This document shows positions 22,292-56,628 of a stretch of DNA of 64,000 nt, piece after piece. Under the pieces are notes generated by a model that searched no databases, had not been told where the DNA came from, and worked only from the letters and a program-made list of their open reading frames with translations. Origin of the DNA: Myxococcales bacterium (GTDB lineage Bacteria > Myxococcota_A > Polyangia > Palsa-1104 > JAEUJZ01); NCBI GenBank assembly GCA_016794505.1, contig JAEUJZ010000076.1, positions 64,001 to 128,000 of the forward strand. The letters are read 5' to 3'. The position numbers and the translations under genes are program-made. Positions within the stretch are counted from its first letter, which is position 1, and each line of letters starts with the position of its first letter.

Positions 22292-22351
22292 GGAAGCTAG
22301 GTCTTCTGCCCCGCGTCGCGAGGGGCCGTAAAGGCTGGCTGCGGAACGACC

Positions 22352-22462
22352 CAATATGCGTTGGGCAATAAAAATAATATCGAAATATTAATAATCATCA
22401 CAAAGAAGTCGATGATAAATAGACATATGATTATTTGTCTTTTAATTATTGATTCATTGCGC
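22352..22462. other. about 110-bp AT-rich tract (<25% GC) in a ~70% GC genome
   Basis: Seen directly. Contains ATTAATAATC, which is shared with the 48221-48333 tract. Confidence 0.8.
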
Positions 22463-39700: not shown

Positions 39701-41455
39701 GTGGACTTCAGCCCCGATGGGCAGACGCTGGCCTCGGCGTCCTGGGACTACAGCGTGCGGCTGTGGGATGTTGCCGGGGGCTGCGAGCGGCACGCGCTGG
39801 CTGGGTACGACGACGAGGTGAATAGCCTGTGCTTCAGCTGGGATGGGCAGGTGCTGGCTTCGGCATCCGGCGATGGCACCGTACGTCTGTGGGAGGTCGC
39901 CAGCGGCCGCGAGATCCAGGCGGCATTGGGAAAATTAGGCGACGTACGTAGCGTGAGCTTCAGCCCGGATGGGCAGACGCTGGCCTCGGCCTCCGACGAT
40001 GGCACCGTACGCCTGTGGGATGTCGAAAGCGGCCGCGAGCGGCGCGTGCTGTCTGATCGCCCACGCAGCATATGGAGCGTGCGCTTCAGCCCGGATGGGC
40101 AGGTGCTGGCCGCATTATCCATCGACAATACGGTGAGTCTGTGGGACGTGGCCAGCGGCCACGAACGGCACACGCTGTTAGGAAGCCAAAGCCGTGTGTT
40201 GAGCGTGTGCTTTAGCCCGGATGGTCAAGCGCTGGCCTTGGGGTCTAGAGACAACACAGTGAGTCTGTGGGACGTGGCCAGCGGCCGCGAGACGCTCGTG
40301 CTAACGGAACACCCACACTCGGTGTCGTGCGTGAGCTTCAGCCCGGATGGGCAGACGCTGGCCTCGGGCTCCTGGGACCACATCGTGCGGCTATGGGACC
40401 GCGCCAGTGGCAGCCAGACACAGGTGCTGTCAGGACACCGAGCCAACGTGTTGAGCGTGCGCTTCAGCCCCGATGGGCAGACGCTGGCGTCAGGGTCCGG
40501 GGACCACACCGTGCGGCTGTGGGACATCGCCAGTGGCCGTGAGCGGGGCGTGTTGAAAGAGCATCAAGGCGACGTGAATAGCGTGAGCTTCAGACCGGAT
40601 GGGCAGGTGCTCGCCTCGGCGTCTGACGACGGCACGGCGCGGCTGTGGAACGTGGCCAGCGGTCGCGTGCGGCACGTGCTGTCGGGATCCTCTGGCCCCG
40701 TGTACAGCGTGAGCTTCAGCCCCGATGGGCAGACGCTGGCCTCGGGCTCCTCTGACGGCGCGGTGCGTCTGTGGGACGTGGACCGTGGCGATGGGGGGTG
40801 GCGCGTGCTGGTGCTGTCCGGGCACCAAGGCGCCGTGCGCTGCGTGAGCTTCAGCCCGGATGGCAAAGCGCTGGCCTCGGCGTCCGAGGACCACACCGTG
40901 CGGTTATGGGACATGGCCAGCGGTCGCGAGCGCCTCGTCCTGTCGGGGCACCAACGCGCCGTCACAAGCGTGAGCTTCCGCCCGGATGGACGGGTGCTGG
41001 CCTCGGGATCTGACGACAACACCGTGCGGCTGTGGGACGTCGAAAGCGGCCGGTGTCTGGGCATCCTGGTGCCCTGCGCCGAGGGCTGGGCCGCCCTGAC
41101 CCCAGACGGCCGCTATCGCATGGGCGGGACCATCGCGGGCGAGGTCTGGTACGCAGTCAACCTATGCCGCTTCGAACTCGGCGAGCTAGATCCGTATGTG
41201 GACCCCGACCTGCCCGCGCCGCTGCGCTTGCCCGACTCGTTCCGCTTCGTGGAACCGACCCCCACCACCCCGCCTGCCATCGAGCCGGCCGTTCCCGACG
41301 CCCCCGGCCGCGACACCACGCTGCCCCCCGCCACGGTCGCGCGCTTTTCTCGCTGGGTCGCTACCCCACTCGGCATCGCGCTTCTCTCATTGATCGCGGG
41401 GCTGCTCTACGTGTTGGCTCGGCTGCTCTACGTGTTGCTCGGGATGATCTTCTGA
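36752..41455 (+). CDS. STAND NTPase: N-terminal TIR-like domain, NACHT/AAA module, pentapeptide repeats, about 14 WD40 repeats and a C-terminal TM helix
   Basis: TIR-like segment: 'IVTLYAAEDRDRFAVYDRHLSSL...GDLLPGEPLARLDQLLRDAGPVVCLLSADFLSNPD'. Walker A 'GEFGVGKTF'; Walker B 'ALLFDGFDE'. Pentapeptide repeats 'ADLRDVDLRRARLVRADLRDADLRGAIL'. Repeated 'GH...V.SV.FSPDGQ.LAS.S.D.TVRLWD' units. Confidence 0.85.
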   Translation: MVPVPSIVTLYAAEDRDRFAVYDRHLSSLKLGRALRHTHSGDLLPGEPLARLDQLLRDAGPVVCLLSADFLSNPDLMAQAKAAADRRGLSKRLIPVRLRPVDLSDTVFADRQALPRDGTPLFDGDHIREEALTQVVAGLRDLMEVLRRSRGMDLDGEYRYRETLIDRVYRETLLDRVEEACRRRAERDHKDVRLRRVQAPPPFGELIEVRYQDSFWSRRYLVAALSSTPTGDDIQTLGAELRSRYQQLDAMAYAELIFVGAPLSEALLQQARTLTIEAQHLEDYQGLIHFGRYIHDQQRALQNDERYPPALYVPQRMVYSRGLGGREETAERDALDEMFAWVLQRDMQRFILVLGEFGVGKTFLLHELARRLGEHPGAPTPVLLEMRSLEKARSLDELIAQHLASRGIERIDLSGFRYMLAEGRIALLFDGFDELALRVSYDRAAEHLDTITQAAQGRAKVVLTSRTQHFRSDDQVKNALARRLEALPGHRAVRLLPFDDGQIRSFLGNRLKDPAQAEARYTLLRDVKDLLGLSENPRMLSFIAQLPEARLRQAQTRGEITAAKLYEELLTWWIEEEWKRAHPKGQEPGLSTEQRWAAVEKLAQRLWQQTESWVTEAQLGDVVSATLLQLKDVGVAVHQVGAGTLLCRDGEGRFSFIHQSVMEWLVAKEAARRVAAGGSALYAAREISPLMADFFTDLLGHKAACAWARDVGKNREARDIEKSNALLIRRRLGDSLSGQDLAGQDLREHALCDADLEGANLRKADLRDVDLRRARLVRADLRDADLRGAILLGADLRGAQLEGARMARAALVGAHMDAPETLDPAALWGAAPPHLSETTPLQIMAHGTSGLSLSGGDLAFSPDGALLAVPCDDGTVRLCNVASGRACRVLSGHHRYVQGVSFSPDGRVLASASHDGTVRLWDVASGRERRVLSGHQGRVLSVDFSPDGQTLASGAQDGTIRLWDAASGREQRVLSGHKGAVLSVDFSPDGQTLASASWDYSVRLWDVAGGCERHALAGYDDEVNSLCFSWDGQVLASASGDGTVRLWEVASGREIQAALGKLGDVRSVSFSPDGQTLASASDDGTVRLWDVESGRERRVLSDRPRSIWSVRFSPDGQVLAALSIDNTVSLWDVASGHERHTLLGSQSRVLSVCFSPDGQALALGSRDNTVSLWDVASGRETLVLTEHPHSVSCVSFSPDGQTLASGSWDHIVRLWDRASGSQTQVLSGHRANVLSVRFSPDGQTLASGSGDHTVRLWDIASGRERGVLKEHQGDVNSVSFRPDGQVLASASDDGTARLWNVASGRVRHVLSGSSGPVYSVSFSPDGQTLASGSSDGAVRLWDVDRGDGGWRVLVLSGHQGAVRCVSFSPDGKALASASEDHTVRLWDMASGRERLVLSGHQRAVTSVSFRPDGRVLASGSDDNTVRLWDVESGRCLGILVPCAEGWAALTPDGRYRMGGTIAGEVWYAVNLCRFELGELDPYVDPDLPAPLRLPDSFRFVEPTPTTPPAIEPAVPDAPGRDTTLPPATVARFSRWVATPLGIALLSLIAGLLYVLARLLYVLLGMIF

Positions 41456-48220: not shown

Positions 48221-48333
48221 AGTATCTTATTTATCAATTAATAATCTGATAGGATAATAAAATATAATTTGTTTCGCTTTATTATACTGATTCATTTTTG
48301 CTCAAACGATTTGTTTTCTGTTTCAGTCTTCCC
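48221..48333. promoter_or_regulatory. about 110-bp AT-rich tract immediately upstream of the EAD-MoxR-vWA locus
   Basis: Seen directly. Shares ATTAATAATC with 22352-22462. Probable promoter/UP/nucleoid-protein region. Confidence 0.5.
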
Positions 48334-48425
48334 GGCAGCGAGCGCCAAGCGCGGCAGGCTCTTCGTCGCTAGCGGCCGCGCGAAAGATCGTCAGAATCCG
48401 CCCGCTCATCGCGTATGTTCCCCGC

Positions 48426-49487
48426 ATGGATGCGTGGGTGCGCAAGCGCTTGTTCGAGTTTCTCAAGGCGGACTCTGACTTTGAGGCGTTCTGTCAGGAC
48501 CACTTCCCCGAGACCGCGCAGCGCTTCGGAGCCGCGATGGATCGCCAGGCGCGCATCAGCCTGCTCTTGCAGCGCGAAGGCGCAAAGCCCGTTCTGCAGA
48601 AGCTGCGCGACGAGTTTCCCGGCCTGATCCCCGCCGGACCGCCGTCGAGCGACCCCGATGTGCGCGCCGAGGTCTCGCTGCGCCAGCGCGCGTTTGGGCA
48701 CGGCGATCCCTATCTGCACTGCGATCGCGGCAAGCAGTTCGCGTACATGCGCGGCGCGATGGCGCGACCCGATCATCAGGTCGTGCTCTTGCCGGGCAGC
48801 CAGGGCGAGGCGCACGAGTTTTTCTTGGCCCGCCTGGAAGTCGCGCTGCCGGGTGAGATCCCGCGCAAGGTGCTGCGCGTGCCGTGGCGCAAGGCGCGTC
48901 CGCCCTCGCCGAGCTTTCCCGTCGACCGCCGCGACTTCGAGGCCGCGCTCTTGCTGGCGCTGGGTCATCCGCCGTCGAGCGAGACCCCGCTTGCGAGCGC
49001 GCTGTCGCGCACCCTGCAGCACCATGTGTTGGTCCTTTTGCATCCCGTCGTGCGGCGTGGGTACGAGCACGCGGCGCTCGTGCAGTACTACACCGACTGG
49101 CTGCCGACGCTGCTTTCATCGCTGCGCACCGAATACCCGTGCAAGCTGGTGCAGCCGATCGAGTGGCAGCCCGCGCCCCCAAAGTCCTCGCCGGACGCCA
49201 CGCCAAGCGCTGTCCCGACGAGCAGCGAAGCCGCCGCCCGCGATCTGATCCGCCGCTTGATGAGCCAGCGCAAGGCGAAGCTGATCATCGAGGCCACCAA
49301 CGATCTGGCGCCGATCACGCGGCCCGATATCGACGATTTTTTGACCGTGGTCGGCTACGCCAGCAGCCTGCCGCCCGACGAGTGCAACGCTGCCCGCGAA
49401 GCCTTCCTGACCGCCGTTTTCAGCGAGGGCGCCAGCTCAGAACAGATCCTGCGCAAGATCCACGAGGAACTTCCCGACGACCTGTGA
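48426..49487 (+). CDS. hypothetical protein with N-terminal alpha-helical effector-associated-domain (EAD)-like module
   Basis: 'MDAWVRKRLFEFLKADSDFEAFCQDHFPETAQRF' is a short helical bundle of the kind found at the N-termini of NTPase-coupled conflict-system proteins. No recognisable enzymatic motif. Confidence 0.5.
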   Translation: MDAWVRKRLFEFLKADSDFEAFCQDHFPETAQRFGAAMDRQARISLLLQREGAKPVLQKLRDEFPGLIPAGPPSSDPDVRAEVSLRQRAFGHGDPYLHCDRGKQFAYMRGAMARPDHQVVLLPGSQGEAHEFFLARLEVALPGEIPRKVLRVPWRKARPPSPSFPVDRRDFEAALLLALGHPPSSETPLASALSRTLQHHVLVLLHPVVRRGYEHAALVQYYTDWLPTLLSSLRTEYPCKLVQPIEWQPAPPKSSPDATPSAVPTSSEAAARDLIRRLMSQRKAKLIIEATNDLAPITRPDIDDFLTVVGYASSLPPDECNAAREAFLTAVFSEGASSEQILRKIHEELPDDL

Positions 49488-49543
49488 CTTCTGCGCCAAG
49501 GCCCAGGCTCAGGCCGAGGCCAGCGCCGACGAAGGACTTCGCC

Positions 49544-50587
49544 ATGCCCAGCACGCCATCGACTTCTCATGCGCCGCACAGCCTGTCCGCCTCGACGGGA
49601 TCCACCCGCACGCAGGCCGCCGACCGGCTTTACCTTTTGTACGAAGGCCAGGGCAGAGCCGCGGGCAGCGCCGCCGTCACACGGGGCGAGCGTGGCGCGT
49701 ATCTCGCCGATGTACGCCTGCGCGATGCCGTACGCACCGCGGTCGCCCTCGAAAAGCCGCTGCTCGTCACGGGCGAGCCGGGCTGCGGCAAGACGGCGCT
49801 GGCCTGGTCCGTCGCATCCGAGCTCGGCTTGGGCGAGCCGCTGACCTTTCACACCCGCAGCGACCATCACGCCGTCGATGTGCTGTACAGCTTCGATCAC
49901 ATCCTGCGCTTCTTCGACGCGCAGACGCAGGAGGAGCGGGCCAAGAGTCCCGAAAACTACATCAAGCTCGAAGCGCTCGGCCGCGCCATCGTCGAGTCCG
50001 ACCCCAGCCCGCGTGGCGCCGAGTGGCGGGCTCGCTTGGCGCAAGACGACGGCATCGCCGAGGTGCCGCTGGGCCGTCGCGTCGTCCTTATCGACGAGAT
50101 CGACAAGGCGCCGCGCGACTTTCCCAACGACCTGCTCGACGAGTTCGACCGCATGCAGTTTCGCGTCAAGGAAAAGCCCGGCCTGCGCTTTACCGCGTCG
50201 CTGCGGCCGATCGTGATCATCACCAGCAACAGCGAACGCCAGCTTCCCGATCCGTTTTTGCGTCGCTGCGTCTATCACGGCATCGACTTTCCCGATCCGC
50301 CGACGCTGGAAAAGATCCTGCGGCAGCGCATCGCGCCCGATCTGCCCGACCAGCTTGTGCAGGCCGCTCTCGATCGCTTCCGTGAGCTGCGTCAGCGCGG
50401 CGAAGAAAAGCTGCTGGAAAAGAAGCCCGCGACCGCTGAGCTCGAAGCCTGGGTGCGCATGCTGCTTCTGGCTCGCGTTCCCGTCGAGAAAATCGCCGAA
50501 AGTCCGCTCGCCGAGCTGCCCAACGTCAGCGTGCTGATCAAGACCGAAAAGGATCTGACATGGATCCGCAAGCAGACCACGCGCTAG
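49544..50587 (+). CDS. MoxR-family AAA+ ATPase
   Basis: AAGGA RBS. Walker A 'GEPGCGKT'; Walker B 'VVLIDEIDKAPRD'; sensor-1 'IVIITSNS'; 'PDPFLRRC' arginine-finger region. Confidence 0.85.
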   Translation: MPSTPSTSHAPHSLSASTGSTRTQAADRLYLLYEGQGRAAGSAAVTRGERGAYLADVRLRDAVRTAVALEKPLLVTGEPGCGKTALAWSVASELGLGEPLTFHTRSDHHAVDVLYSFDHILRFFDAQTQEERAKSPENYIKLEALGRAIVESDPSPRGAEWRARLAQDDGIAEVPLGRRVVLIDEIDKAPRDFPNDLLDEFDRMQFRVKEKPGLRFTASLRPIVIITSNSERQLPDPFLRRCVYHGIDFPDPPTLEKILRQRIAPDLPDQLVQAALDRFRELRQRGEEKLLEKKPATAELEAWVRMLLLARVPVEKIAESPLAELPNVSVLIKTEKDLTWIRKQTTR

Positions 50588-53500
50588 ACGATCCGAGCGC
50601 AGCGATGGACCCTGCGCGCGATCCAGCGTCGCCCTTGTCGGCGTTTCTGGCCGTGCTGCGGACGCGTGGCGTGCCGATCGGCATCGCCCAGCACATCGAG
50701 GCCGCGCGCCTGCTTTCGCTTCTGCGCCCGACCTGCGACGTGCAGTCGCTGGCGCGAAGCCTGGGCGCGCTGCTCGGTCGCGACGGCAAAGAAGCGCGCC
50801 TGGTCGAAAACCTGTTCCTCAACGAGTTCGCCGAGGCGTTTCACTTTGCCGACTATGGCCCTGAGCTTCCGGCCGTGCGTCAAGCCGCGCTGCGCAAGCT
50901 CGTCGAGCGCGCCGAGCACACGACCCCGGCCGATGACGCGCGCCGACGACGCAGGGCGGCGCTGCGCTGGATCGTTCCGAGCGCTGTGGTCTTTGTTGCC
51001 GTGCTGGCGGGATTGGCCGTGTTTCTGCGTCGCCCCGCACCCTCGCCGCCGCCCACGCCGAGCCCACAAACCCAAGCACCACCCACCGCGCCGATCCCGT
51101 GGACCGAGTTGCTGGAACCGGAAGCCACTCCGCCCGATCTTCGCAGCGAGCCCGTAGTCAGCGATCCGCGCTGGCTGCTCTTGATCCTGTTGTCGCTCGT
51201 GGGGACGCTGCCTTTTTCTGCGCTCTGGTTGGCTCGCAGCTATGGCCCGCGACGCAGGCAGGCGCGCAAGGAACACGCGCGAGCGTTCTGGAGCAAAGCG
51301 CGCGAGCAGCTTGACGGCCCGGTCACGCCGCAGCTTCGCTTGCCGCCCGTGCCGCCGCCGCTCGATCGCGGTGATCTCGACGACATGGCGACGCTCTTGG
51401 GCCGCAGCGACGAGCGGCAGCCGACGCGCCAGATCGATGGCGAGGGGACGGCGCGGGCGACAATCGCCCTCGGCAACACGCCCAAGCTGGTGTGGCGCGA
51501 GCGCAAGCTGGCGCGAAGGCTGTTGATCCTGTGCGATGTGTGCAGCGACATGCGGCCGTGGCAGCACAAGACCGCGGCGCTGATCGATGGCCTGCGTCGA
51601 CGTGGCGTGCCGCTCTCCGTGCGCTATTTCGATGGCTCGGCAGATCTGCTACGTGCCGATGAAGACAGCGCGTATGAGCCCTTATCGCTGACCCTGCTTC
51701 AGAATGCCGGCGCCGCGCTGCTGGTGCTGAGCACGGGCCGCGATGCCCGCGATCCCCATCGCCCCGGCCAGCTTGCGCGCTGGATTCGTGAGGCGAGTGA
51801 GCGCGTGCCGCTGCGCGTGTGGCTGAACCCGCTTTCGCCGCGTCGGCTGTGGCGTCCCGAGCTACGTAAGGCGCGCTTTCCCATGCGCGTCTTGCCGATG
51901 ACGCCCAAGGGCCTGACCGCCGCCGCGTATGAGCTAGCGCTGGGCAGCGAGCGACGCCTGCACATCCCCGACGCCCGCGTGCAGCCCGCCCGCGAAGCCA
52001 GCGAGTCCGACGTGCAGCGCTTGGAAGAGCTGATCGCGCTGTATCCCGATGCGCCGCTTGATGTCGTCGAGTGGCTGTGGCGTCGCTTCCTGCCTGACGT
52101 GCCCGACGACGTGCTGGCCCTGACGCTGGACGAAGAAGACGTGCGCTGGAACAGCGTGCAGTGGAGCGACGAGCGTCTGGCCGCCGCCCTGAATCGCCTG
52201 CGGATGCGCGACGCGGGCAAGGAGCCGCCGGAGCGCATCGAAGAACAGGCGCGGCGCGAGCTTTTCCGCCTGCTCGACGACAGCGCGCAGACGATGGTGC
52301 GCGACAGTGTCGGCCAGCTTCGCCTGCGCCTGTTGGCGGCGCTGCAGCAGATTTATCTGCACGGCCCCGGCGACCAAGAAGCCGCGCTGGCGACGCTGCG
52401 CAGCCTGCTGCGCGGCCCGATCTACAGCGAGGTGGCCGAGGCCATTTTCCTGATCGGCGGGCCGGCGGACATGCCGCAAGCGGGCATCCTGCCCATCGCA
52501 CTGCCGACGATCGACGCGCTGCGCAGCGAGTTCCCCCAGCTTGTGCAAAGCGGCGTCGAGTACGTGGCCGAGGTGTCATCCGATGCGACGCTGCCCAAGG
52601 GCGGAAAGCCCGCGTCCGTGCCCTGGCCGCGCCCGATGCTGCGTGACATCGCCCCCGCGCTGGGGCTGCCGGCTCTGGCGCTGCTGGGGCAGTGGTGGCT
52701 CGGCGGGTGGGGCCGTCCGGTTCTGCCCGAGCCTGCGTATCGGCTCACCGTGCAAGCGACCGACAGCGAGCACGTGCGGCTCGTCGTCCAAGCGACGCGA
52801 TCCGGTCTGCCGACGAGCGGTCGTCTGTGCCAGGACGCCACGTGCCGCCGCTCAACCGAGCGGACCTGGGATGCGGCGAGCGGATTTGTCCAGAGCCGAA
52901 CCGCAGAGCGTCAGGAAATCCACCTGCGCGCGAGGCTGAGGGGCGGAAAGCTGCTGTACAGCAACGCCGTCGCGATCCCCAAGCGCGTGCCGCCCGCGCC
53001 CCCCATCGAAGAGCCGTCCATGCCGCCCGTCGAAGAGCCGCCCGAAAAACCGCCTGAGCCGGTCGTCGCAGCGGCGATGCAGGGCAGTCTGCGCCTGCGG
53101 TTTATCGATGCGCAAGATGGCCGTGCCGTCGTGGGGGTGCGGTACAGCGTGATCGACGCCAAGGGGCAGAAGCAGAGCGGGCAAGGCGTGCTGCAGAAGT
53201 CGCTGCCCATCGGAGCCGCCAAAATCACCGCACAAGCCGCGGGGTATGCGCCGCGTACCGTGACCGTCACGATCAAGGCCGGGCTAGAGCAAGAGGTGCA
53301 GTACCCATTGACGACACAGCAAGCCAAGCCCGACCCACTGCCCCTCATCGCTGCGAGCCCACCGGACATGGCAACGCCCGCACCGCCGCCGGATCTAAGC
53401 AGCCCCGTGGATCAGGCGAGCCCGGCGCCAGCCGTTGCGTTTCGACTTGCGCGCTGGCTGACGATCCCCGGCGGGACGTTCACGATGGGCAGTGAACGCC

Positions 53501-54234
53501 ACGACGACGAAAAACCACCGCACCCGATGACCGTCGCGGCCTTCCAGCTCGATGACATCGAAGTGACCGCCGGGGCGTATGCCGAGTGCGTCGCGAGCGG
53601 CGCCTGCGTGGCTGCCGAGACCGTCGGAAGCTGCAATGCCGGGAAGCCCGATCGGGTGAGCCACCCGATCAACTGCGTGAACTACGCGCAGGCCGAGTCG
53701 TACTGCAGCTGGCGGGGCGGTCGCTTGCCGACGGAAGAAGAGTGGGAATACGCCGCGCGGGGCCGCGACGGACGCGAGTATCCATGGGGCGCAGCACAGC
53801 CCTCACCCCAGCTATTGAACGCTTGCGGCAGCGAGTGTCGATATGCCAACAAGATGTTCAAAGGCAACGACGGCTGGCCCGAGACGGCTCCCGTGGGCAG
53901 CTATCCCGAGGGCCAGAGCCCATTCGGGGCGCTGGACCTGGCCGGCAACGTCGGGGAGTGGGTAGATGGCTGGCACTGTAGCCGCGGTTATGAGCCGGGA
54001 ATCCCGACCAGAGCGAGTGAACATAAATCGCGCTGTCGGGCTAATTTTCGCATGATTCGCGGGGGCTCCTGGGACAGCTTCGCCCCGACGGGCGTGCGTG
54101 CCGCCTATCGCTCTGGATTCTCACCGAACTACCGCGGCTACTTCGTCGGTTTCCGTTGCGCCAGGACCAGTGCCGAACGGATCGGGCCACCCGATTTTTT
54201 TTATAGTACTAGGGCTCGCGAAGCGAACCCTTGA
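50560..54234 (+). CDS. large membrane protein: N-terminal helical domain, 2 TM helices, vWA domain (degenerate MIDAS), third TM, Ig-like/CarboxypepD_reg-like domain, C-terminal FGE-sulfatase (SUMF1-type) domain
   Basis: 28-nt overlap with the MoxR gene; AAGGA RBS. vWA: 'LLILCDVCSDM...ALLVLSTGRD'. FGE: 'WLTIPGGTFTMGS...HPMTVAAFQLDDIEVT...YCSWRGGRLPTEEEWEYAARG...RGGSWDS'. Confidence 0.75.
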   Translation: MDPQADHALDDPSAAMDPARDPASPLSAFLAVLRTRGVPIGIAQHIEAARLLSLLRPTCDVQSLARSLGALLGRDGKEARLVENLFLNEFAEAFHFADYGPELPAVRQAALRKLVERAEHTTPADDARRRRRAALRWIVPSAVVFVAVLAGLAVFLRRPAPSPPPTPSPQTQAPPTAPIPWTELLEPEATPPDLRSEPVVSDPRWLLLILLSLVGTLPFSALWLARSYGPRRRQARKEHARAFWSKAREQLDGPVTPQLRLPPVPPPLDRGDLDDMATLLGRSDERQPTRQIDGEGTARATIALGNTPKLVWRERKLARRLLILCDVCSDMRPWQHKTAALIDGLRRRGVPLSVRYFDGSADLLRADEDSAYEPLSLTLLQNAGAALLVLSTGRDARDPHRPGQLARWIREASERVPLRVWLNPLSPRRLWRPELRKARFPMRVLPMTPKGLTAAAYELALGSERRLHIPDARVQPAREASESDVQRLEELIALYPDAPLDVVEWLWRRFLPDVPDDVLALTLDEEDVRWNSVQWSDERLAAALNRLRMRDAGKEPPERIEEQARRELFRLLDDSAQTMVRDSVGQLRLRLLAALQQIYLHGPGDQEAALATLRSLLRGPIYSEVAEAIFLIGGPADMPQAGILPIALPTIDALRSEFPQLVQSGVEYVAEVSSDATLPKGGKPASVPWPRPMLRDIAPALGLPALALLGQWWLGGWGRPVLPEPAYRLTVQATDSEHVRLVVQATRSGLPTSGRLCQDATCRRSTERTWDAASGFVQSRTAERQEIHLRARLRGGKLLYSNAVAIPKRVPPAPPIEEPSMPPVEEPPEKPPEPVVAAAMQGSLRLRFIDAQDGRAVVGVRYSVIDAKGQKQSGQGVLQKSLPIGAAKITAQAAGYAPRTVTVTIKAGLEQEVQYPLTTQQAKPDPLPLIAASPPDMATPAPPPDLSSPVDQASPAPAVAFRLARWLTIPGGTFTMGSERHDDEKPPHPMTVAAFQLDDIEVTAGAYAECVASGACVAAETVGSCNAGKPDRVSHPINCVNYAQAESYCSWRGGRLPTEEEWEYAARGRDGREYPWGAAQPSPQLLNACGSECRYANKMFKGNDGWPETAPVGSYPEGQSPFGALDLAGNVGEWVDGWHCSRGYEPGIPTRASEHKSRCRANFRMIRGGSWDSFAPTGVRAAYRSGFSPNYRGYFVGFRCARTSAERIGPPDFFYSTRAREANP

Positions 54235-54252
54235 GCCCGGATGGGGGCTGGT
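54222..54252. repeat. 31-bp direct repeat copy 1 (agcgaacccttgagcccggatgggggctggt)
   Basis: Seen directly. It overlaps the last codons and the stop of the vWA-FGE gene. An identical copy lies at 56598-56628. Confidence 0.85.
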
Positions 54253-54525: not shown

Positions 54526-56376
54526 CTAGCGAAAGACGTATACAGCGCCGCTGCCTGGAGCGCGGTTGTTGGTCCAGATGTCGTTCACGCCGCGAGCATC
54601 GTCGGCTTCATTCAGTGCTCCGATGGCCACGGTGCCGTCTGACACCGCCACACGATAGCCAAAGTAGTCACCGCGCTCAGAGTTGGGGGCTTTGATATAG
54701 GCTTGCTGCCTCCACGTGGTGCCGACTCGCTGGAACAGATAGCCCGCGCCGCTGCTAAGCGCCGAGTTGTCGTTCTGGCCGACATTTATGACTCTGGAGC
54801 CGCTACCTTCAGTGTAGGCGCCGACGACTAGAAGATCGCCCGACAGTGAGATGCTGGTGCCGAACAGGTCGTCCCGCTCGGTGTTGCTGGCCTTGATATA
54901 GGCCTGCTGACTCCACGTGGTGCCGGTTCGCTGGAACACATAGACCGCCCCGCTTGCAACGAAGTCGTTGTTGGCTTGATTGCCATCCACTCCCGTTGCG
55001 TTGCTGTCTTCCCCGGTTGCAGAAACGGCCAGGGTGTCGCCCGACAGGGATACTGCGGTGCCAAAGTAGTCGGCGCCATTTGTGTTGCTGGCCTTGATAT
55101 AGGCTTGCTGGCTCCAGGTGGTGCCGACGCGCTGGAACACATAAACCGCGCCGCTCCCTGGTGCACTGTTGTCGGCCTGGTTGCCATTTGCCCCGGTGGC
55201 ATTGCTGGCTTCCATTGTGGCGCCCACGGTCAGGGTGTCGCCGGACACCGCGACGCTCGTACCGAACTGATCATTCGCCTCGGTGTTGCTGGCCTTGATA
55301 TAGGCCTGCTGGCTCCAAGTCGAGCCGGAGCGCGTAAAGACATAGACCGCGCCGCTCCCTGAAGCGCTGTTGTCGGCCTGGTTGCCATCCACTCCGGTAG
55401 CGTTGCTATCTTCCGCCATGGCTCCCACGGCGAGGGTGTCGCCTGATACAGAGACGCTATAGCCAAACTGATCGTATGCCTGGGCGTTGCTGGCCTTGAT
55501 ATAGGCCTGCTGCCTCCACGTGGTGCCGGTTCGCTGGAACACATAGACCGCCCCGCTTCTCGGCGCGCTGTTGTCGGCTTGGTTGCCATTGACCCCCGTG
55601 GCACTGCTGGCTTCCATATAGGTTCCGACAGCGAGCGTGTCGCCCGAAAGTGAAAGGCTAAGGCCAAACTGATCCAGCGCCTCGGTGTTGCTGGCCTTGA
55701 TATAGGCTTGCTGGCTCCAGGTCGAGCCGGCGCGCGTAAAGACGTAGACCGCGCCGCTGGCAAATGCGCTGTTGTCGGCCTGATTGCCATCCACTCCGGT
55801 GGCATTGCTCTCTTCCGAAGTGGCCGCCACGGCCAGCGTGTCCCCCGATAGCGCCACCATGGCGAAGAGATCGCCGGTACCGGTGTTGCTGGCCTTAATA
55901 TAGTCGATGGGTGCTTTCGTAATGGCGATGTCGTAGCTCATCTGTGCTCCGCCCTGGCTTTGGACCCGTACCGCGATCATCGTCGGCCCGTTGGCCAGTG
56001 CGATCGGCGCTGAGGCGACGCCGGAAGCCACCGGCTGTCCGTTTATCTCGATCGTGGCCCCCGACTGCACAGCCGTCGCTGTGACCTGCACAGTGGTGGC
56101 AAAAACGGAGACCCGCGCCGAATAGACCGCCCGCGTCGGAGAGAACTCTGGGCTAAGAGAGCCCCCAGATAGGCTGAGCGCAGAAAGAGAAGCATCGTCG
56201 ACGCTGGCATCTTGGCCACCGCCGCTGGCATCGCTGGCTCCACAGGCAAAGCCAGTCGGCAGGCAGGTAGCTCCACACGGCATCATCCCTTGCGGGCAGC
56301 CGGCCTGGCCCCCCGTTTGTGAACAGCCCAAGACACCGATTACCGTCAGAATCCAACAGACATTCGCAATCCGCAT
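54526..56376 (-). CDS. secreted lipoprotein with cadherin-like beta-sandwich domain and about 9 FG-GAP-like beta-propeller repeats
   Basis: Lipobox 'VLGC'. 'LSALSLSGGSLSPEFSPTRAVYSARV' is cadherin-like. Tandem ~42-aa units 'GNQADNSA.SGAVYVF.R.G.TWSQQAYIKASNT...D.FG'. Confidence 0.7.
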   Translation of the reverse strand: MRIANVCWILTVIGVLGCSQTGGQAGCPQGMMPCGATCLPTGFACGASDASGGGQDASVDDASLSALSLSGGSLSPEFSPTRAVYSARVSVFATTVQVTATAVQSGATIEINGQPVASGVASAPIALANGPTMIAVRVQSQGGAQMSYDIAITKAPIDYIKASNTGTGDLFAMVALSGDTLAVAATSEESNATGVDGNQADNSAFASGAVYVFTRAGSTWSQQAYIKASNTEALDQFGLSLSLSGDTLAVGTYMEASSATGVNGNQADNSAPRSGAVYVFQRTGTTWRQQAYIKASNAQAYDQFGYSVSVSGDTLAVGAMAEDSNATGVDGNQADNSASGSGAVYVFTRSGSTWSQQAYIKASNTEANDQFGTSVAVSGDTLTVGATMEASNATGANGNQADNSAPGSGAVYVFQRVGTTWSQQAYIKASNTNGADYFGTAVSLSGDTLAVSATGEDSNATGVDGNQANNDFVASGAVYVFQRTGTTWSQQAYIKASNTERDDLFGTSISLSGDLLVVGAYTEGSGSRVINVGQNDNSALSSGAGYLFQRVGTTWRQQAYIKAPNSERGDYFGYRVAVSDGTVAIGALNEADDARGVNDIWTNNRAPGSGAVYVFR

Positions 56377-56597
56377 TTGATCCCCCCTCCAAGAGCCGAC
56401 AAGGTAGCTCCCAGATGCATTCTAAGGAAGTCTAGCTGGTGCCAGTTGGCTATTCATGGCGGGCCGGCTTTGACACACGCCCGTTCACAAACCAAGCAGC
56501 GTCACGTGTTCCAACAGGACAGCGGCGGCTGCGTTGGCGAGTGGATGCTAGGTAGGTCGCTGCCCGCTGCCGTGTCTTGATTCCTGCCGTCACGCGC

Positions 56598-56628
56598 AGC
56601 GAACCCTTGAGCCCGGATGGGGGCTGGT
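56598..56628. repeat. 31-bp direct repeat copy 2
   Basis: Identical to 54222-54252. Confidence 0.85.

What the first reader, a model, noticed from the sequence alone, without database searches (positions are those of the whole stretch)
48221..54234. Candidate NTP-dependent conflict system: EAD-like protein + MoxR AAA+ ATPase + membrane vWA protein with C-terminal FGE/SUMF1-type domain, behind an AT-rich tract
Three co-directional genes sit together. The second and third overlap by 28 nt, and a MoxR ATPase next to a vWA-domain protein is the classic co-chaperone pairing. Here the vWA protein is unusual in several ways. It is 1224 aa long. Its vWA domain sits between N-terminal TM helices and a third TM helix. 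Its MIDAS motif is degenerate (DVCSD in place of DxSxS). It ends in an Ig-like domain plus an FGE-sulfatase/C-type-lectin-fold domain, placed after the third TM helix and so perhaps extracytoplasmic. The upstream 353-aa protein opens with a short helical EAD-like module and has no enzymatic motifs. Computational surveys have proposed vWA-MoxR ternary modules with variable effectors, FGE-like domains among them, as anti-invader or programmed-death systems; none has been characterised experimentally. The locus is preceded by a ~110-bp AT-rich tract in a 70% GC genome. Its architecture may couple a cytoplasmic MoxR/vWA sensor to an extracytoplasmic FGE-type binding or effector domain.
Basis: partly seen in the sequence, partly recalled or inferred. 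Interest (0 to 1): 0.82.

Follow-up and report, generated by a model that had tools for sequence, protein, structure and literature searches.

The report
Three-gene membrane threat-sensor system
This is a typical member of a predicted, still untested bacterial "immune-like" gene trio (inactive STAND protein, MoxR ATPase, membrane vWA protein), and its outward-facing lectin-like tip bears the scars of targeted hypermutation, so it is more likely a variable receptor than an enzyme.

Summary
Three co-directional genes (48426-49487, 49544-50587, 50560-54234) follow a 110-bp tract of 23% GC. The trio matches, feature by feature, the "iSTAND" subtype of MoxR-vWA ternary conflict systems predicted by Kaur et al. 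2020. Gene A is an EAD7-like adaptor plus an inactive STAND NTPase core, not a VMAP. Gene B is a catalytically intact MoxR-type AAA+. Gene C has a CoxE-like N-domain, two TM helices, a vWA domain with a variant MIDAS, a helical linker, a third TM, two Ig-like sandwiches and an FGE-sulfatase (C-type-lectin-fold) domain. The trio is conserved down to 34-41% identity in changing genomic contexts, and all three genes are under purifying selection.

The main addition is that the FGE-like domain lacks the catalytic cysteines. Its last ~35 codons are instead a diversity-generating-retroelement (DGR) variable region. Relatives carry avd, a template repeat and a reverse transcriptase just downstream, with 66 of 70 template-to-target mismatches at template adenines. 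This window has lost that cassette, so its variable region is frozen or serviced in trans.

The best reading is a transmembrane receptor (periplasmic variable lectin, then vWA/MoxR, then iSTAND-EAD adaptor). It is a new member of a known, experimentally uncharacterised kind.

The parts
48221..48330 (.). AT-rich tract (22.7% GC). It forms the left junction of the cassette in this lineage and contains the only sigma-70-like promoter match in the region (48231-48258).
   Evidence: Lowest-GC 110-bp window of the 64 kb. Promoter-like site. Conserved in syntenic L008 but absent in L006/L011, where a 111-aa ORF occupies that position.
48338..48425 (+). Conserved leader upstream of gA. This is the left end of the sequence shared with relatives that sit in other genomic contexts.
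   Evidence: Alignment of the window and L008 with L006 and L011. Similarity begins about 90 bp before the ATG.
48426..49487 (+). gA, the iSTAND component (353 aa). It has an EAD7-like helical adaptor (residues ~5-70; 48438-48635), a disordered linker, and an inactive STAND NTPase core (residues ~97-350; 48714-49475). 'LLPGSQGEAH' (48786-48815) stands in place of Walker A and 'LVLLHP' (49029-49046) in place of Walker B.
49544..50587 (+). gB, a MoxR-type AAA+ ATPase (347 aa). It carries Walker A GEPGCGKT (49772-49795), Walker B VVLIDEIDK (50081-50107), sensor-1 IITSN and an arginine pair PFLRRC. An alternative GTG start at 49484 overlaps the gA stop.
   Evidence: Pfam AAA and AAA_5 above cut-off. 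Best PDB sequence matches are midasin AAA domains. More than 7600 relatives were found, and NCBI and JGI name them MoxR family ATPase. Relatives sit between iSTAND/TIR-iSTAND and vWA genes. dN/dS 0.04-0.17.
50560..54234 (+). gC, the membrane vWA component (1224 aa). It overlaps gB by 28 nt.
   Evidence: P0007 is 100% identical, comes from a Myxococcales MAG, and is annotated 'SUMF1/EgtB/PvdO family nonheme iron enzyme'.
50632..50844 (+). gC N-terminal four-helix domain (residues ~25-95), of the type described for CoxE-like vWA proteins. It is cytoplasmic.
   Evidence: Helices 25-35, 42-55, 61-72 and 76-94 with pLDDT about 63-82. The domain is conserved in all homologues. Kaur et al. describe this domain for iSTAND-system vWA proteins.
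50971..51240 (+). TM1 (residues 138-156), a proline-rich periplasmic loop (157-204) and TM2 (205-227).
   Evidence: Kyte-Doolittle 2.69 and 2.23. The K/R distribution is 6 against 2 on the cytoplasmic sides.
51403..51939 (+). vWA domain (residues ~282-460) with a variant MIDAS, D326-V-C-S-D-M (51535-51552).
   Evidence: Pfam VWA_CoxE 29.1 bits against a cut-off of 26.4. The Foldseek hit to NorD of the NorQD complex has probability 0.94-0.98 but E only 0.011-0.017 and TM 0.36-0.38, on a full-length model of pLDDT 66. Motif conservation. dN/dS 0.06-0.16.
51967..52554 (+). Alpha-helical linker domain after the vWA domain (residues ~470-665). It corresponds by position to the 'vWA-L' linker of Kaur et al. 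2021.
   Evidence: AF2 gives helices with pLDDT 80-94. There is no Pfam family. The assignment rests on position only and was not tested by profile.
52639..52707 (+). Probable third TM helix (residues ~694-716).
   Evidence: Kyte-Doolittle is 1.3 here but 1.6-2.3 at the same position in homologues. AF2 predicts a helix at 694-713.
52711..53310 (+). Two beta-sandwich (Ig-like) domains (residues 718-806 and 841-917) separated by a Pro-rich linker. The second is of the transthyretin-like/CarboxypepD_reg (PEGA-like) type. Predicted periplasmic.
   Evidence: AF2 pLDDT about 72-83. Foldseek hits carboxypeptidase D transthyretin-like domain, CnaB, pilin and FNIII pairs. Weak Pfam CarboxypepD_reg.
53449..54165 (+). 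FGE-sulfatase-superfamily (C-type-lectin-fold, 'FGS') domain, residues 964-1202. The FGE catalytic cysteine pair is absent.
   Evidence: Pfam E = 3e-49. The best PDB match is SUMF2/pFGE. In the alignment to FGE, the C336/C341 stretch falls on DSFAPT and a gap. The AF2 model of this part is unreliable (pLDDT about 30-45).
54052..54159 (+). DGR-type variable region (residues ~1165-1200; ...RGGSW DSFA PT G VRAA Y R S G F SP NY R GYF V GFRC).
   Evidence: Variable codons are of NNC type between fixed codons. dN/dS is 1.1-1.4 against 0.06-0.35 elsewhere in gC. 28 of 34 positions that are A in the template repeat of relative L014 vary among window-clade VRs, against 19 of 102 non-A positions (Fisher p = 3e-11).
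54179..54197 (+). Conserved hairpin just after the VR, followed by a T-run. This is the position of the DGR target-recognition hairpin, and it is also terminator-like. In this window the ancestral TAG stop before it is lost, so gC reads through it to 54234.
   Evidence: Best terminator-like site of the region. A hairpin and the motif TAG-(G/A)TCGG..CCGA are present in most relatives with an FGS domain (L001, L004 and L009 differ).
54217..54252 (+). A 36-bp element conserved downstream of gC in relatives, where it lies just upstream of avd. It marks the right end of the shared cassette. A second copy lies at 56593-56628.
   Evidence: Zero matches are expected by chance.

Best explanation
The locus is an iSTAND-type MoxR-vWA ternary conflict (threat-sensing) system.

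**The receptor, gC.** It is a three-pass inner-membrane protein. The N-terminal four-helix domain, the vWA domain and the helical linker face the cytoplasm. Two Ig-like spacers and a C-type-lectin-fold (FGE-superfamily) domain face the periplasm. That lectin domain is a ligand-binding module, not an enzyme. Its C-terminal ~35 codons are a variable region that was written by a diversity-generating retroelement (error-prone, adenine-specific reverse transcription of a template repeat).

**The signalling steps (all inferred).**
1. A periplasmic ligand binds. Candidates are a phage, predator or competitor surface molecule, or envelope debris.
2. Binding changes the cytoplasmic vWA/linker part of gC.
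3. The MoxR AAA+ ATPase gB docks on the vWA domain, as NorQ does on NorD, and uses ATP to remodel or license the complex.
4. The catalytically dead STAND protein gA is released or oligomerises. Through its N-terminal EAD7-like adaptor it recruits effector proteins carrying the same adaptor, encoded elsewhere in the genome. The outcome is growth arrest or death of the cell.

**State of the DGR in this genome.** The avd-TR-RT cassette that sits right after gC in relatives is gone from the locus. The receptor specificity is therefore either frozen or maintained by a DGR elsewhere in the genome.

**Shown:** domain identities, loss of the catalytic motifs, gene linkage, purifying selection, the DGR signature, and active DGRs in relatives. 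**Inferred:** topology of the C-terminal half, direction of signalling, the identity of the effector, and the biological role.
For: **Classification**
- gA: iSTAND is hit by the window protein (E = 0.0016, below cut-off) and by 30 of 75 homologues. L021's orthologue scores above the cut-off.
- gA: the N-module is a free-standing adaptor found alone or repeated on kinase, SIR2-STAND and TRADD-N proteins. It coincides with sub-threshold EAD7 matches.
- gA: in L014 the divergent neighbour carries the same adaptor (39% over 71 aa).
- gB: Walker A, Walker B, sensor-1 and the Arg pair are intact. It belongs to the MoxR family by source names, and AAA_5 is above cut-off.
- gC: VWA_CoxE is above cut-off, there is a weak NorD fold match (E about 0.01) and FGE-sulfatase scores 3e-49.
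- The published description of iSTAND systems fits: MoxR without extensions, a CoxE-like four-helix N-domain, TM segments in 28%, FGS as the commonest effector (22%), and PEGA-type domains after a TM.

**Linkage**
- The same trio is found in L001, L004, L006/7, L008, L011, L014, L016, L018, L019 and L021, with different neighbours.

**Selection**
- dN/dS is 0.04-0.20 for gA, gB and the cytoplasmic part of gC.

**Receptor rather than enzyme**
- The FGE cysteines are absent.
- The VR shows NNC codon variation and dN/dS above 1.
- In relatives, TR-VR mismatches at TR adenines are 16/16, 17/17, 17/18 and 16/19. An RVT_1 reverse transcriptase and avd lie downstream. A bAvd-like gene follows gC in L011.
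- The variable positions in the window clade coincide with TR adenines (p = 3e-11).
- The sensor domain is swapped between nearly identical backbones.

**Periplasmic location**
- TM3 is conserved.
- The domains after it are extracellular types (CnaB, transthyretin-like, pilin-like).
- In homologue P0019 a TonB_C-like domain replaces the FGS module.

**Precedent**
- Dore et al. propose that the DGR-varied CLec-vWA protein is the sensor of MoxR ternary systems.
- The Esr pathway preprint gives genetic evidence that a surface sensor signals through MoxR-vWA.
Against: - No experiment exists for any iSTAND system.
- No PADLOC model hits gA or gC.
- The window's neighbours are housekeeping genes, not a defence island.
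- No EAD7-like partner was found in the 64 kb, so the effector is unknown.
- No avd, TR or RT is in the window.
- The window's VR deviates from its relatives at several non-adenine third-codon positions, and its ancestral stop codon is lost. This looks like drift since the last DGR homing event.
- The MIDAS is non-canonical (DxCxD; STG loop), so the usual metal-mediated vWA contact may not operate.
- TM3 is only weakly hydrophobic here, and the charge bias around it is weak (3 against 2). No dedicated topology predictor was available.
- The AF2 model of the FGS domain is unreliable.
- Kaur et al. assign the sensing role to iSTAND, not to the FGS domain.
Confidence: 0.6

Rival explanations
1. 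Original Kaur/Aravind model. The cytoplasmic iSTAND protein is the invader sensor (a nucleic-acid receptor), MoxR-vWA sets the threshold, and the FGS domain on the vWA protein is the output: a non-enzymatic binder that sequesters invader molecules.
For: This is the published prediction for iSTAND systems. gA has an ORC/Cdc6/STAND-like fold, whose relatives bind nucleic acids. The FGS domain has no catalytic residues, which fits a 'binder' role.
Against: An FGS domain placed beyond a third TM helix and two Ig-like spacers would sit in the periplasm, away from injected nucleic acid. gA carries an EAD adaptor, which Kaur et al. say 'primarily recruits other effectors'. That places the output on gA rather than on gC. 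A hypervariable domain is more naturally an input.
Confidence: 0.17
2. The system is a sensor, but not for defence. The periplasmic variable lectin would serve social or predatory functions of a myxobacterium (kin or prey recognition, envelope-stress sensing), with MoxR-vWA-iSTAND as a signalling module.
For: The host is a Myxococcales MAG. The locus sits among ordinary chromosomal genes and is syntenic in a relative. The DGR is absent here, which fits a fixed specificity. MoxR-vWA pathways can drive transcriptional or secretion responses rather than death.
Against: Relatives sit next to recombinases, transposases, TIR-kinase and SNF2/HNH helicase genes. The adaptor family is fused to TIR, SIR2, caspase and TRADD-N modules that are typical of immunity and death systems. 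The family is patchy and rare: only 6 close gA homologues among 5.8 billion proteins, and only 2 hits among 185,579 species genomes at the sensitivity of that pattern scan (two peptide motifs).
Confidence: 0.12
3. The locus is a decaying remnant. A horizontally acquired cassette lost its DGR and is on its way to inactivation, so it has no current function.
For: The avd-TR-RT cassette is missing. L006/L007 show an intermediate stage, with avd truncated after 74 aa and fused to an RT fragment. The window's gC lost its stop codon and reads through the hairpin. The MIDAS serine is replaced by Cys. The cassette has an AT-rich junction.
Against: All three ORFs are intact over 5.8 kb. dN/dS is 0.04-0.2 even against the syntenic orthologue L008, which also lacks the DGR. 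Selection has therefore continued after the loss. The gB catalytic motifs are intact.
Confidence: 0.08
4. Housekeeping MoxR-vWA chaperone pair. It would work like NorQ/NorD, CoxD/CoxE or RavA/ViaA and mature an envelope enzyme, with the C-terminal domain acting as a true formylglycine-generating or EgtB-like enzyme, as the NCBI annotation implies.
For: The NCBI name is 'SUMF1/EgtB/PvdO family nonheme iron enzyme'. The sequence is closer to FGE/SUMF2 than to TvpA (E = 2e-22 against 2e-8). The vWA domain resembles NorD, though weakly (Foldseek E about 0.01).
Against: The FGE catalytic cysteines are absent. NCBIfam EgtB, SenA and PvdO scores are far below their cut-offs (80-88 bits against 360-500). 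The would-be active-site stretch is hypervariable and DGR-written. No sulfatase or other client gene is linked. The third gene is an iSTAND-EAD protein.
Confidence: 0.03

Closest known systems
iSTAND ternary systems (vWA-MoxR subsystem 2) of Kaur, Burroughs, Iyer & Aravind, eLife 2020 (PMC7159879); computational prediction only
   Same: - Gene trio of iSTAND, MoxR and vWA.
- iSTAND with an N-terminal EAD.
- MoxR without terminal extensions.
- vWA protein with a CoxE-like four-helix N-domain and N-terminal TM segments.
- FGS as the C-terminal module.
- Ig/PEGA-type domain after a TM.
- Proteobacterial hosts with a multicellular lifestyle.
   Different: - In relatives of this trio the FGS module is served by a DGR. 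The passages I read describe DGR linkage for VMAP systems and for STAND-FGS proteins, not for iSTAND systems.
- In this window the DGR is missing.
- The EAD is only EAD7-like, with sub-threshold matches.
DGR-diversified MoxR/vWA (VMAP-type) conflict systems of cyanobacteria and Thiohalocapsa (Dore et al., PNAS 2024, PMC10907252)
   Same: [quoted passage not shown]
- The proposed role is a variable antigen sensor.
- Some targets are predicted to be periplasmic.
   Different: - The third component there is VMAP, a trypsin or an HTH protein, not iSTAND.
- No Myxococcota are mentioned ('myxo' occurs 0 times).
- Those loci have their DGR in cis, whereas this window does not.
Esr threat-sensing pathway of Schaalia odontolytica (bioRxiv 2026, PMC13622651)
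   Same: A cell-surface variable sensor signals through a conserved MoxR-vWA pair to a defensive output. This is the only genetic evidence for the outside-in logic.
   Different: - The sensor is a filamentous beta-propeller protein.
- The relay is a kinase/phosphatase/FHA cascade to Esx secretion.
- There is no iSTAND, EAD or lectin domain.
NorQ/NorD, CoxD/CoxE, RavA/ViaA (classical MoxR-vWA chaperone pairs)
   Same: - An AAA+ MoxR gene is adjacent to a vWA gene.
- gC's vWA domain hits VWA_CoxE and, weakly, NorD by fold (E about 0.01).
   Different: - Those pairs mature metallo-enzymes and have a canonical MIDAS.
- They lack a third iSTAND gene, TM helices and variable C-terminal modules.
DGR variable proteins TvpA (Treponema denticola, PDB 2Y3C) and Mtd (phage BPP-1)
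   Same: - C-type-lectin/FGE fold with the VR at the C-terminal end, finishing in GFRC-like residues.
- Adenine-specific mutagenesis.
- A hairpin after the VR.
   Different: - By sequence the gC domain is closer to FGE/SUMF2 than to TvpA.
- It is the tip of a 1224-aa membrane signalling protein, not a lipoprotein or a tail fibre.
Formylglycine-generating enzyme (SUMF1) / pFGE (SUMF2)
   Same: Full-length Pfam FGE-sulfatase match (E = 3e-49). The best solved relative is SUMF2.
   Different: The catalytic Cys336/Cys341 pair is absent, as it is in the inactive paralogue SUMF2. That stretch is the hypervariable region.

Membership tests
iSTAND-type MoxR-vWA ternary system (Kaur et al. 2020) | Adjacent, co-directional genes for a MoxR-clade AAA+ ATPase and a vWA-domain protein | tested here: met
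   gB has AAA and AAA_5 above cut-off, and sources name the family MoxR. gC has VWA_CoxE above cut-off and a weak NorD fold match (E about 0.01). The two genes overlap by 28 nt.
iSTAND-type MoxR-vWA ternary system (Kaur et al. 2020) | The third gene encodes a STAND-like NTPase domain with eroded nucleotide-binding motifs (Pfam PF19995) | tested here: met
iSTAND-type MoxR-vWA ternary system (Kaur et al. 2020) | The three genes are conserved as a unit across genomes | tested here: met
   The same order is seen in at least 10 loci at 34-96% identity, with unrelated flanks.
iSTAND-type MoxR-vWA ternary system (Kaur et al. 2020) | The vWA protein has a CoxE-like four-helix N-domain and a variable C-terminal effector region, and the MoxR lacks VMAP-type extensions | tested here: met
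   Four helices at residues 25-94. The C-terminal module is FGS in most homologues, absent in P0018, and TonB_C-like in P0019. gB has only a ~50-aa low-complexity N-tail, without the WxhapG/PsWRxa motifs quoted (read from the sequence).
iSTAND-type MoxR-vWA ternary system (Kaur et al. 2020) | An EAD or signalling domain at the N-terminus of iSTAND, with a cognate EAD on a separate effector | tested here: inconclusive
   The N-module behaves as an EAD. It is free-standing, repeated, and fused to kinase, SIR2 and TRADD-N proteins. It is paired in L014. However, EAD7 matches are below cut-off, and no partner lies in this 64-kb window. The rest of the genome was not available.
iSTAND-type MoxR-vWA ternary system (Kaur et al. 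2020) | Anti-invader or programmed-death function | not testable with these tools
   No experiment on this subtype was found in the literature.
VMAP-type ternary system | The third component carries VMAP-M/VMAP-C domains | tested here: not met
   No VMAP family was hit by gA or by its 75 homologues. iSTAND was hit instead.
DGR target gene (variable protein) | A variable region whose differences map to adenines of a template repeat | tested here: inconclusive
   Met in relatives: 16/16, 17/17, 17/18 and 16/19 mismatches lie at TR adenines. In the window itself no TR is available. The evidence is indirect: NNC codon pattern, dN/dS 1.1-1.4, and variable sites coinciding with the TR adenines of L014 (p = 3e-11).
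DGR target gene (variable protein) | A cognate reverse transcriptase, Avd and TR nearby | tested here: not met
   None in the 64-kb window (blastn; tblastn with RT and Avd). They are present in L014, L016, L018 and L019, partly present in L011, and decayed in L006/L007. A trans-acting DGR elsewhere in the genome could not be checked.
DGR target gene (variable protein) | A conserved 3' end of the VR (IMH-like) followed by a hairpin | tested here: met
   GG(A/T)TTCCGTTG(C/T)GCCAGGAC is followed by a TCGG..CCGA hairpin in most of the 13 loci (L001, L004 and L009 differ). In the window the hairpin is at 54179-54197. Function was not tested.
Formylglycine-generating enzyme (FGE/SUMF1) | A catalytic cysteine pair (human C336/C341) in the C-terminal segment | tested here: not met
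   In the HMMER alignment to FGE chains, gC has DSFAPT and a gap at that place, with no cysteines.
EgtB/SenA/PvdO-type enzymes (NCBI annotation of the protein) | A score above the NCBIfam equivalog cut-offs | tested here: not met
   Scores are 80-88 bits against cut-offs of 360-500, and only the C-terminal FGE-like domain matches.
von Willebrand A domain with functional MIDAS | The DxSxS motif plus Thr and Asp loops | tested here: not met
   The motif is D-V-C-S-D-M, and the third loop is S-T-G instead of T-D-G. The family-wide pattern is DxxxDM. Metal binding could not be tested.
Known anti-phage systems in PADLOC-DB v2 | A match to a curated defence-protein model | tested here: not met
   gA and gC have no hits. 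gB has only weak P-loop-level hits (IetA, TRIP13, mad8).

The most novel reading that the evidence does not exclude
The trio may be a bacterial transmembrane 'antigen receptor'. A periplasmic hypervariable lectin would still be re-written by a DGR located elsewhere in the genome. It would detect extracellular threats (phage particles, predators, epibionts) before they breach the membrane. It would signal outside-in through vWA/MoxR to a death-adaptor-like iSTAND-EAD protein that assembles effectors. This would be an adaptive-immunity-like surface surveillance pathway in Myxococcota, in which recombinational swapping of whole sensor domains adds a second layer of diversification.
Probability: 0.2. 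Interest if true: 0.8.

Novelty: new member of a known kind. Interest (0 to 1): 0.45.

Why it matters
MoxR-vWA ternary systems are one of the largest predicted classes of "immune-like" systems in multicellular bacteria. No iSTAND or VMAP member has been tested experimentally.

This locus is compact (5.9 kb, three genes) and comes with a natural series of relatives:
- relatives with an active DGR (L014, L018, L019);
- relatives with a decaying DGR (L006/L007);
- relatives without a DGR (the window and L008);
- a relative with a swapped sensor domain (L009).

The predicted topology puts the variable domain outside the cytoplasm. Together these features make three open questions directly testable:
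1. Which component senses, the lectin or iSTAND?
2. What does the MoxR-vWA pair do mechanically?
3. Do EAD adaptors really recruit effectors?

The work also corrects a database annotation: "SUMF1/EgtB/PvdO family nonheme iron enzyme" should read non-catalytic variable lectin domain.

Tried and rejected
- **PADLOC.** The scan gave no hit for gA or gC.
- **"MadB family AAA-type ATPase".** The NCBIfam hit of gB scored 72 bits against a cut-off of 475. I could not trace it in the literature. A paper search returned only unrelated MadB proteins, so I did not use it.
- **Genome-contig scan.** With the 7-sequence alignment it returned only two short MAG contigs (1.7 and 2.5 kb), which were useless for context.
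- **Template repeat near gC.** I searched the window and L001-L011 and found none. The TR was found only after fetching metagenome loci.
- **Second EAD7-like domain in the window.** A six-frame search with a profile of the gA N-module found none. The profile was narrow, so divergent copies could be missed.
- **111-aa ORF upstream of gA in L006/L011.** I tested it as a possible EAD partner. It showed no similarity and no Pfam hit.
- **AlphaFold model of gC residues 1-1200.** It is usable for residues ~25-95, 205-630, 694-806 and 841-917. It is unreliable for the FGS domain (pLDDT 30-45), so I drew no structural conclusion on the VR surface.
- **Hypotheses considered and rejected.** gC as a true FGE or EgtB enzyme, and gA as a VMAP.
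- **Not run.** The 36-bp repeat pair was not pursued to an explanation. No topology predictor such as DeepTMHMM was available. Topology rests on hydropathy, charge bias, conservation and domain types.

Full report
**1. What is in the sequence**

The region holds three co-directional + strand genes:
- gA, 48426-49487, 353 aa.
- gB, most likely 49544-50587, 347 aa. A GTG at 49484 overlapping the gA stop is an alternative start.
- gC, 50560-54234, 1224 aa. It overlaps gB by 28 nt.

Upstream lies the most AT-rich 110 bp of the whole 64-kb window (48221-48330, 22.7% GC against 65.4% overall). It holds the only sigma-70-like promoter match of the region. gC is 100% identical to a protein of a Myxococcales MAG (219-kb contig) that NCBI calls "SUMF1/EgtB/PvdO family nonheme iron enzyme".

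**2. Gene A is an iSTAND protein with an EAD-like adaptor**

*Family searches*
- On its own, gA gives only a sub-threshold Pfam hit to iSTAND (PF19995, E = 0.0016, residues 97-206).
- A word-indexed search found only six relatives among 5.8 billion proteins.
- An exhaustive profile search found 1186 cluster representatives at E <= 0.001.

*Two modules.* The matches split the protein into two modules.
- Profile positions ~7-70 occur alone, in several copies, or at the ends of long proteins.
- Positions ~99-355 occur behind other N-terminal domains.
- Of 75 homologues scanned against Pfam, 30 hit iSTAND, 15 TIR_2 and 11 EAD7. Others hit protein kinase, SIR2, caspase, TRADD-N and SAVED.
- The EAD7 matches, though below cut-off, fall exactly on the stretch that matches gA's N-module.

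*Structure and motifs*
- An AlphaFold model (pLDDT 85.9) has a helical N-domain, a disordered linker and an alpha/beta core.
- Where Walker A and B should be, the family has PGxxGEAH and hLLHP.

gA is thus an inactive STAND NTPase with an EAD7-like adaptor. It is not a VMAP.

**3. Gene B is a competent MoxR-type AAA+**
- It has Walker A (GEPGCGKT), Walker B (VVLIDEIDK), sensor-1 and an arginine pair.
- It passes the Pfam AAA and AAA_5 cut-offs.
- Its best solved relatives by sequence are midasin AAA domains.
- It belongs to a family of more than 7600 proteins that NCBI and JGI name MoxR family ATPase.
- Two relatives were examined in context. One sits between an iSTAND gene and a 1144-aa FGE-domain gene (L021). 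The other sits between a TIR-domain gene, whose C-terminal part was not tested for iSTAND, and an 845-aa gene with no Pfam hit (L022).

**4. Gene C is a modular membrane protein**

In order along the protein:
- A four-helix N-domain (residues 25-94).
- TM1 (138-156), a Pro-rich loop, and TM2 (205-227). The charge bias places the N-terminus and the vWA domain in the cytoplasm.
- A vWA domain. VWA_CoxE is above cut-off. A Foldseek match to NorD of the NorQD complex is weak (E about 0.01).
- A helical domain (~470-665), which corresponds by position to the "vWA-L" linker of Kaur et al. 2021.
- A third hydrophobic helix (~694-716). It is weak here but sits at the same position in the gC homologues that were scanned.
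- Two beta-sandwiches (718-806 and 841-917). The second is transthyretin-like/CarboxypepD_reg. The fold matches are to CnaB, pilin, FNIII and adhesin domains, all extracellular types.
- An FGE-sulfatase domain (964-1202, E = 3e-49).

In homologue P0019 the FGS module is replaced by a TonB_C-like domain, which is another periplasmic domain type.

**5. The trio is a conserved, mobile unit under selection**
- The same three genes in the same order occur in L001, L004, L006/L007, L008, L011, L014, L016, L018, L019 and L021. The gA homologues were verified at 34%, 41% and 77% identity.
- The flanks differ between loci. They include serine recombinases, an IS transposase, a TIR-kinase, SNF2 and HNH helicases and HTH regulators.
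- Only L008 is syntenic with the window (Usp, K+ channel, trio, FG-GAP, NhaA, SprT).
- Sequence shared between the window and the non-syntenic relatives runs from about 48338 to about 54252. This delimits a cassette of about 5.9 kb. The AT-rich tract is its left junction in this lineage.
- dN/dS is 0.18-0.20 for gA, 0.04-0.17 for gB and 0.06-0.16 for the cytoplasmic part of gC.

**6. The "FGE" domain is a DGR-type variable lectin, not an enzyme**

*No catalytic residues.* In the alignment to FGE structures, the stretch that carries the catalytic Cys336/Cys341 is DSFAPT plus a gap in gC. The closest solved relative is the inactive paralogue SUMF2. NCBIfam EgtB, SenA and PvdO scores are far below their cut-offs.

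*Hypervariability*
- That same stretch is hypervariable. Orthologues that are 87-90% identical overall differ at about half of the last 45 residues, between fixed RGGSW and GFRCA.
- In the codon alignment, variable codons are of NNC type (GAC/GGC/TTT, TTC/AGC/GTC, TAC/AGC/GGC and so on). They are interleaved with invariant codons.
- First- and second-position changes outnumber third-position ones only in this segment. dN/dS there is 1.1-1.4.

*DGRs in relatives*
- L011 has a bAvd-like gene directly after gC.
- The metagenome loci L014, L018 and L019 have avd, a 119-122-bp repeat of the VR about 0.8 kb downstream, and an RVT_1 reverse transcriptase. L016 has avd and the repeat, but its contig ends before any RT.
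- The repeat differs from the VR at 16, 17, 18 and 19 positions. Of these, 16, 17, 17 and 16 are adenines in the repeat. This is the hallmark of DGR mutagenic homing.
- Positions that vary among the four VRs of the window clade coincide with the adenines of the L014 template: 28 of 34 against 19 of 102 (Fisher p = 3e-11).
- A conserved VR 3' end and a short hairpin follow in most relatives. This is where DGR targets carry their recognition elements (my knowledge of Guo et al. 2011, not re-read here).

**7. State of the DGR in this window**
- No TR, avd or RT is present in the 64 kb.
- L006/L007 show a decayed cassette, with avd truncated after 74 aa and abutting an RT fragment.
- The window and L008 have none, and they share the same downstream junction.
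- The window's VR has private third-position changes at non-adenine sites (CGT, GGA, TCA, TGC).
- The ancestral TAG stop is lost, so the ORF runs through the hairpin/terminator (54179-54197) to 54234.
- This favours a VR that has drifted since its last homing event. A trans-acting DGR elsewhere in the genome cannot be excluded.
- Independently, the window and L009 are nearly identical (only scattered differences) over the first ~2.7 kb of gC but differ throughout the FGS domain, synonymous sites included. Whole sensor domains are therefore exchanged by recombination.

**8. Comparison with what is known**
- Kaur et al. 2020 define four MoxR-vWA ternary systems. Their "iSTAND" subtype is described with these features:
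  - a MoxR without extensions;
  - a vWA protein with a CoxE-like four-helix N-domain;
  - N-terminal TM segments in about 28% of systems;
  - FGS as the commonest effector (about 22%);
  - PEGA/OmpA/PASTA-type domains preceded by a TM segment;
  - EADs or a Death-like domain on iSTAND;
  - enrichment in proteobacteria with multicellular habits.
- The locus meets each feature that could be tested.
- Those authors describe DGR linkage for VMAP systems and for STAND-FGS proteins.
- Dore et al. 2024 argue that the DGR-varied CLec-vWA protein is the sensor, and they note periplasmic targets.
- I found no experiment on iSTAND or VMAP systems.
- A 2026 preprint gives genetic evidence that a surface beta-propeller sensor signals through MoxR-vWA in Actinobacteria.

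**9. Mechanism and verdict**

The best-supported model is a transmembrane receptor. A periplasmic variable lectin is the input, vWA plus the linker with MoxR is the ATP-dependent transducer, and iSTAND-EAD is the adaptor that recruits effectors encoded elsewhere.
- The paired-EAD arrangement is visible in L014, where the divergent neighbour shares the adaptor.
- No partner lies in this window.
- Topology beyond TM3, signal direction, the effector and the biological role are all inferred.

Lesser rivals are a social or predatory sensing role, a decaying relic, and a housekeeping chaperone/enzyme. The last is essentially excluded.

It is a new member of a known, computationally defined kind. Two points go beyond the passages of the literature that I read: DGR servicing of an iSTAND-type system in Myxococcota relatives, and an orphaned VR here. 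I score interest at 0.45. A specialist would not be surprised, but the locus and its natural variants are a good entry point for the first experiments on this class.

Noticed in passing
window 36752-41455 (+): A 1567-aa protein with a weak TIR match, NA-iREase3, a NACHT NTPase, pentapeptide repeats and about 13 WD40 repeats. It is an NLR-like STAND conflict protein about 7 kb upstream of the trio, so the neighbourhood holds a second immune-like gene.
   Followed up: partly
window 54217-54252 and 56593-56628: A 36-bp direct repeat (35/36 identical; none expected by chance) brackets the minus-strand FG-GAP/cadherin-like gene 54526-56376. The same two copies occur in syntenic L008. Relatives in other contexts have a single copy between gC and avd. 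It may be a recombination scar from loss of the DGR cassette or gain of the FG-GAP gene. It remains unexplained.
   Followed up: partly
window 54160-54234: gC has lost the ancestral stop codon (relatives read ...CAATAG; the window reads ...GAACGG). It reads through the conserved hairpin/terminator-like element, which adds a unique C-terminal tail of about 18-20 aa (SAERIGPPDFFYSTRAREANP).
   Followed up: yes
window 22349-22458: A second very AT-rich 110-bp tract (24.5% GC) elsewhere in the window. It is the only other tract comparable to the one before gA.
   Followed up: no
L014 12963-14781; L018 8133-9942; L019 5613-7425: In the DGR-bearing relatives, avd and the template repeat are on the same strand as the target gene, but the reverse transcriptase is encoded on the opposite strand (convergent). 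A conserved HTH plus Methyltransf_33-like gene of 508-567 aa lies beyond it.
   Followed up: partly
L017 3916-6603: A second FGS-domain target lies next to the trio's gC homologue. It is an 895-aa Ser/Thr protein kinase fused to an FGE-sulfatase domain, and its C-terminus is 72% identical at the DNA level to the gC VR region. This suggests that one DGR serves two targets.
   Followed up: partly
L014 5348-5953 (-) and 6140-8326 (+): The gA homologue here is 728 aa, with a calcineurin-like phosphoesterase (Metallophos) domain inserted between the EAD and iSTAND. The divergent 201-aa neighbour carries the same EAD (39% over 71 aa) and is followed by a 660-aa TPR protein. This is an example of the paired-EAD arrangement.
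   Followed up: yes
L009 471-4124 versus window 50560-54234: The two gC alleles are nearly identical over residues 1-900 (only scattered nucleotide differences). They diverge abruptly from about residue 930, at the Pro-rich linker, through the whole FGS domain, synonymous sites included. This indicates recombinational replacement of the sensor domain.
   Followed up: yes
L006 11716-12288; L007 10054-10626: The 190-aa ORF after gC is a chimera. Its first 74 aa are 97% identical to the bAvd-like protein of L011. It then runs into the reverse complement of an RT fragment (RT residues ~5-94). This is a deletion-decayed DGR, followed in L007 by a serine recombinase gene.
   Followed up: yes
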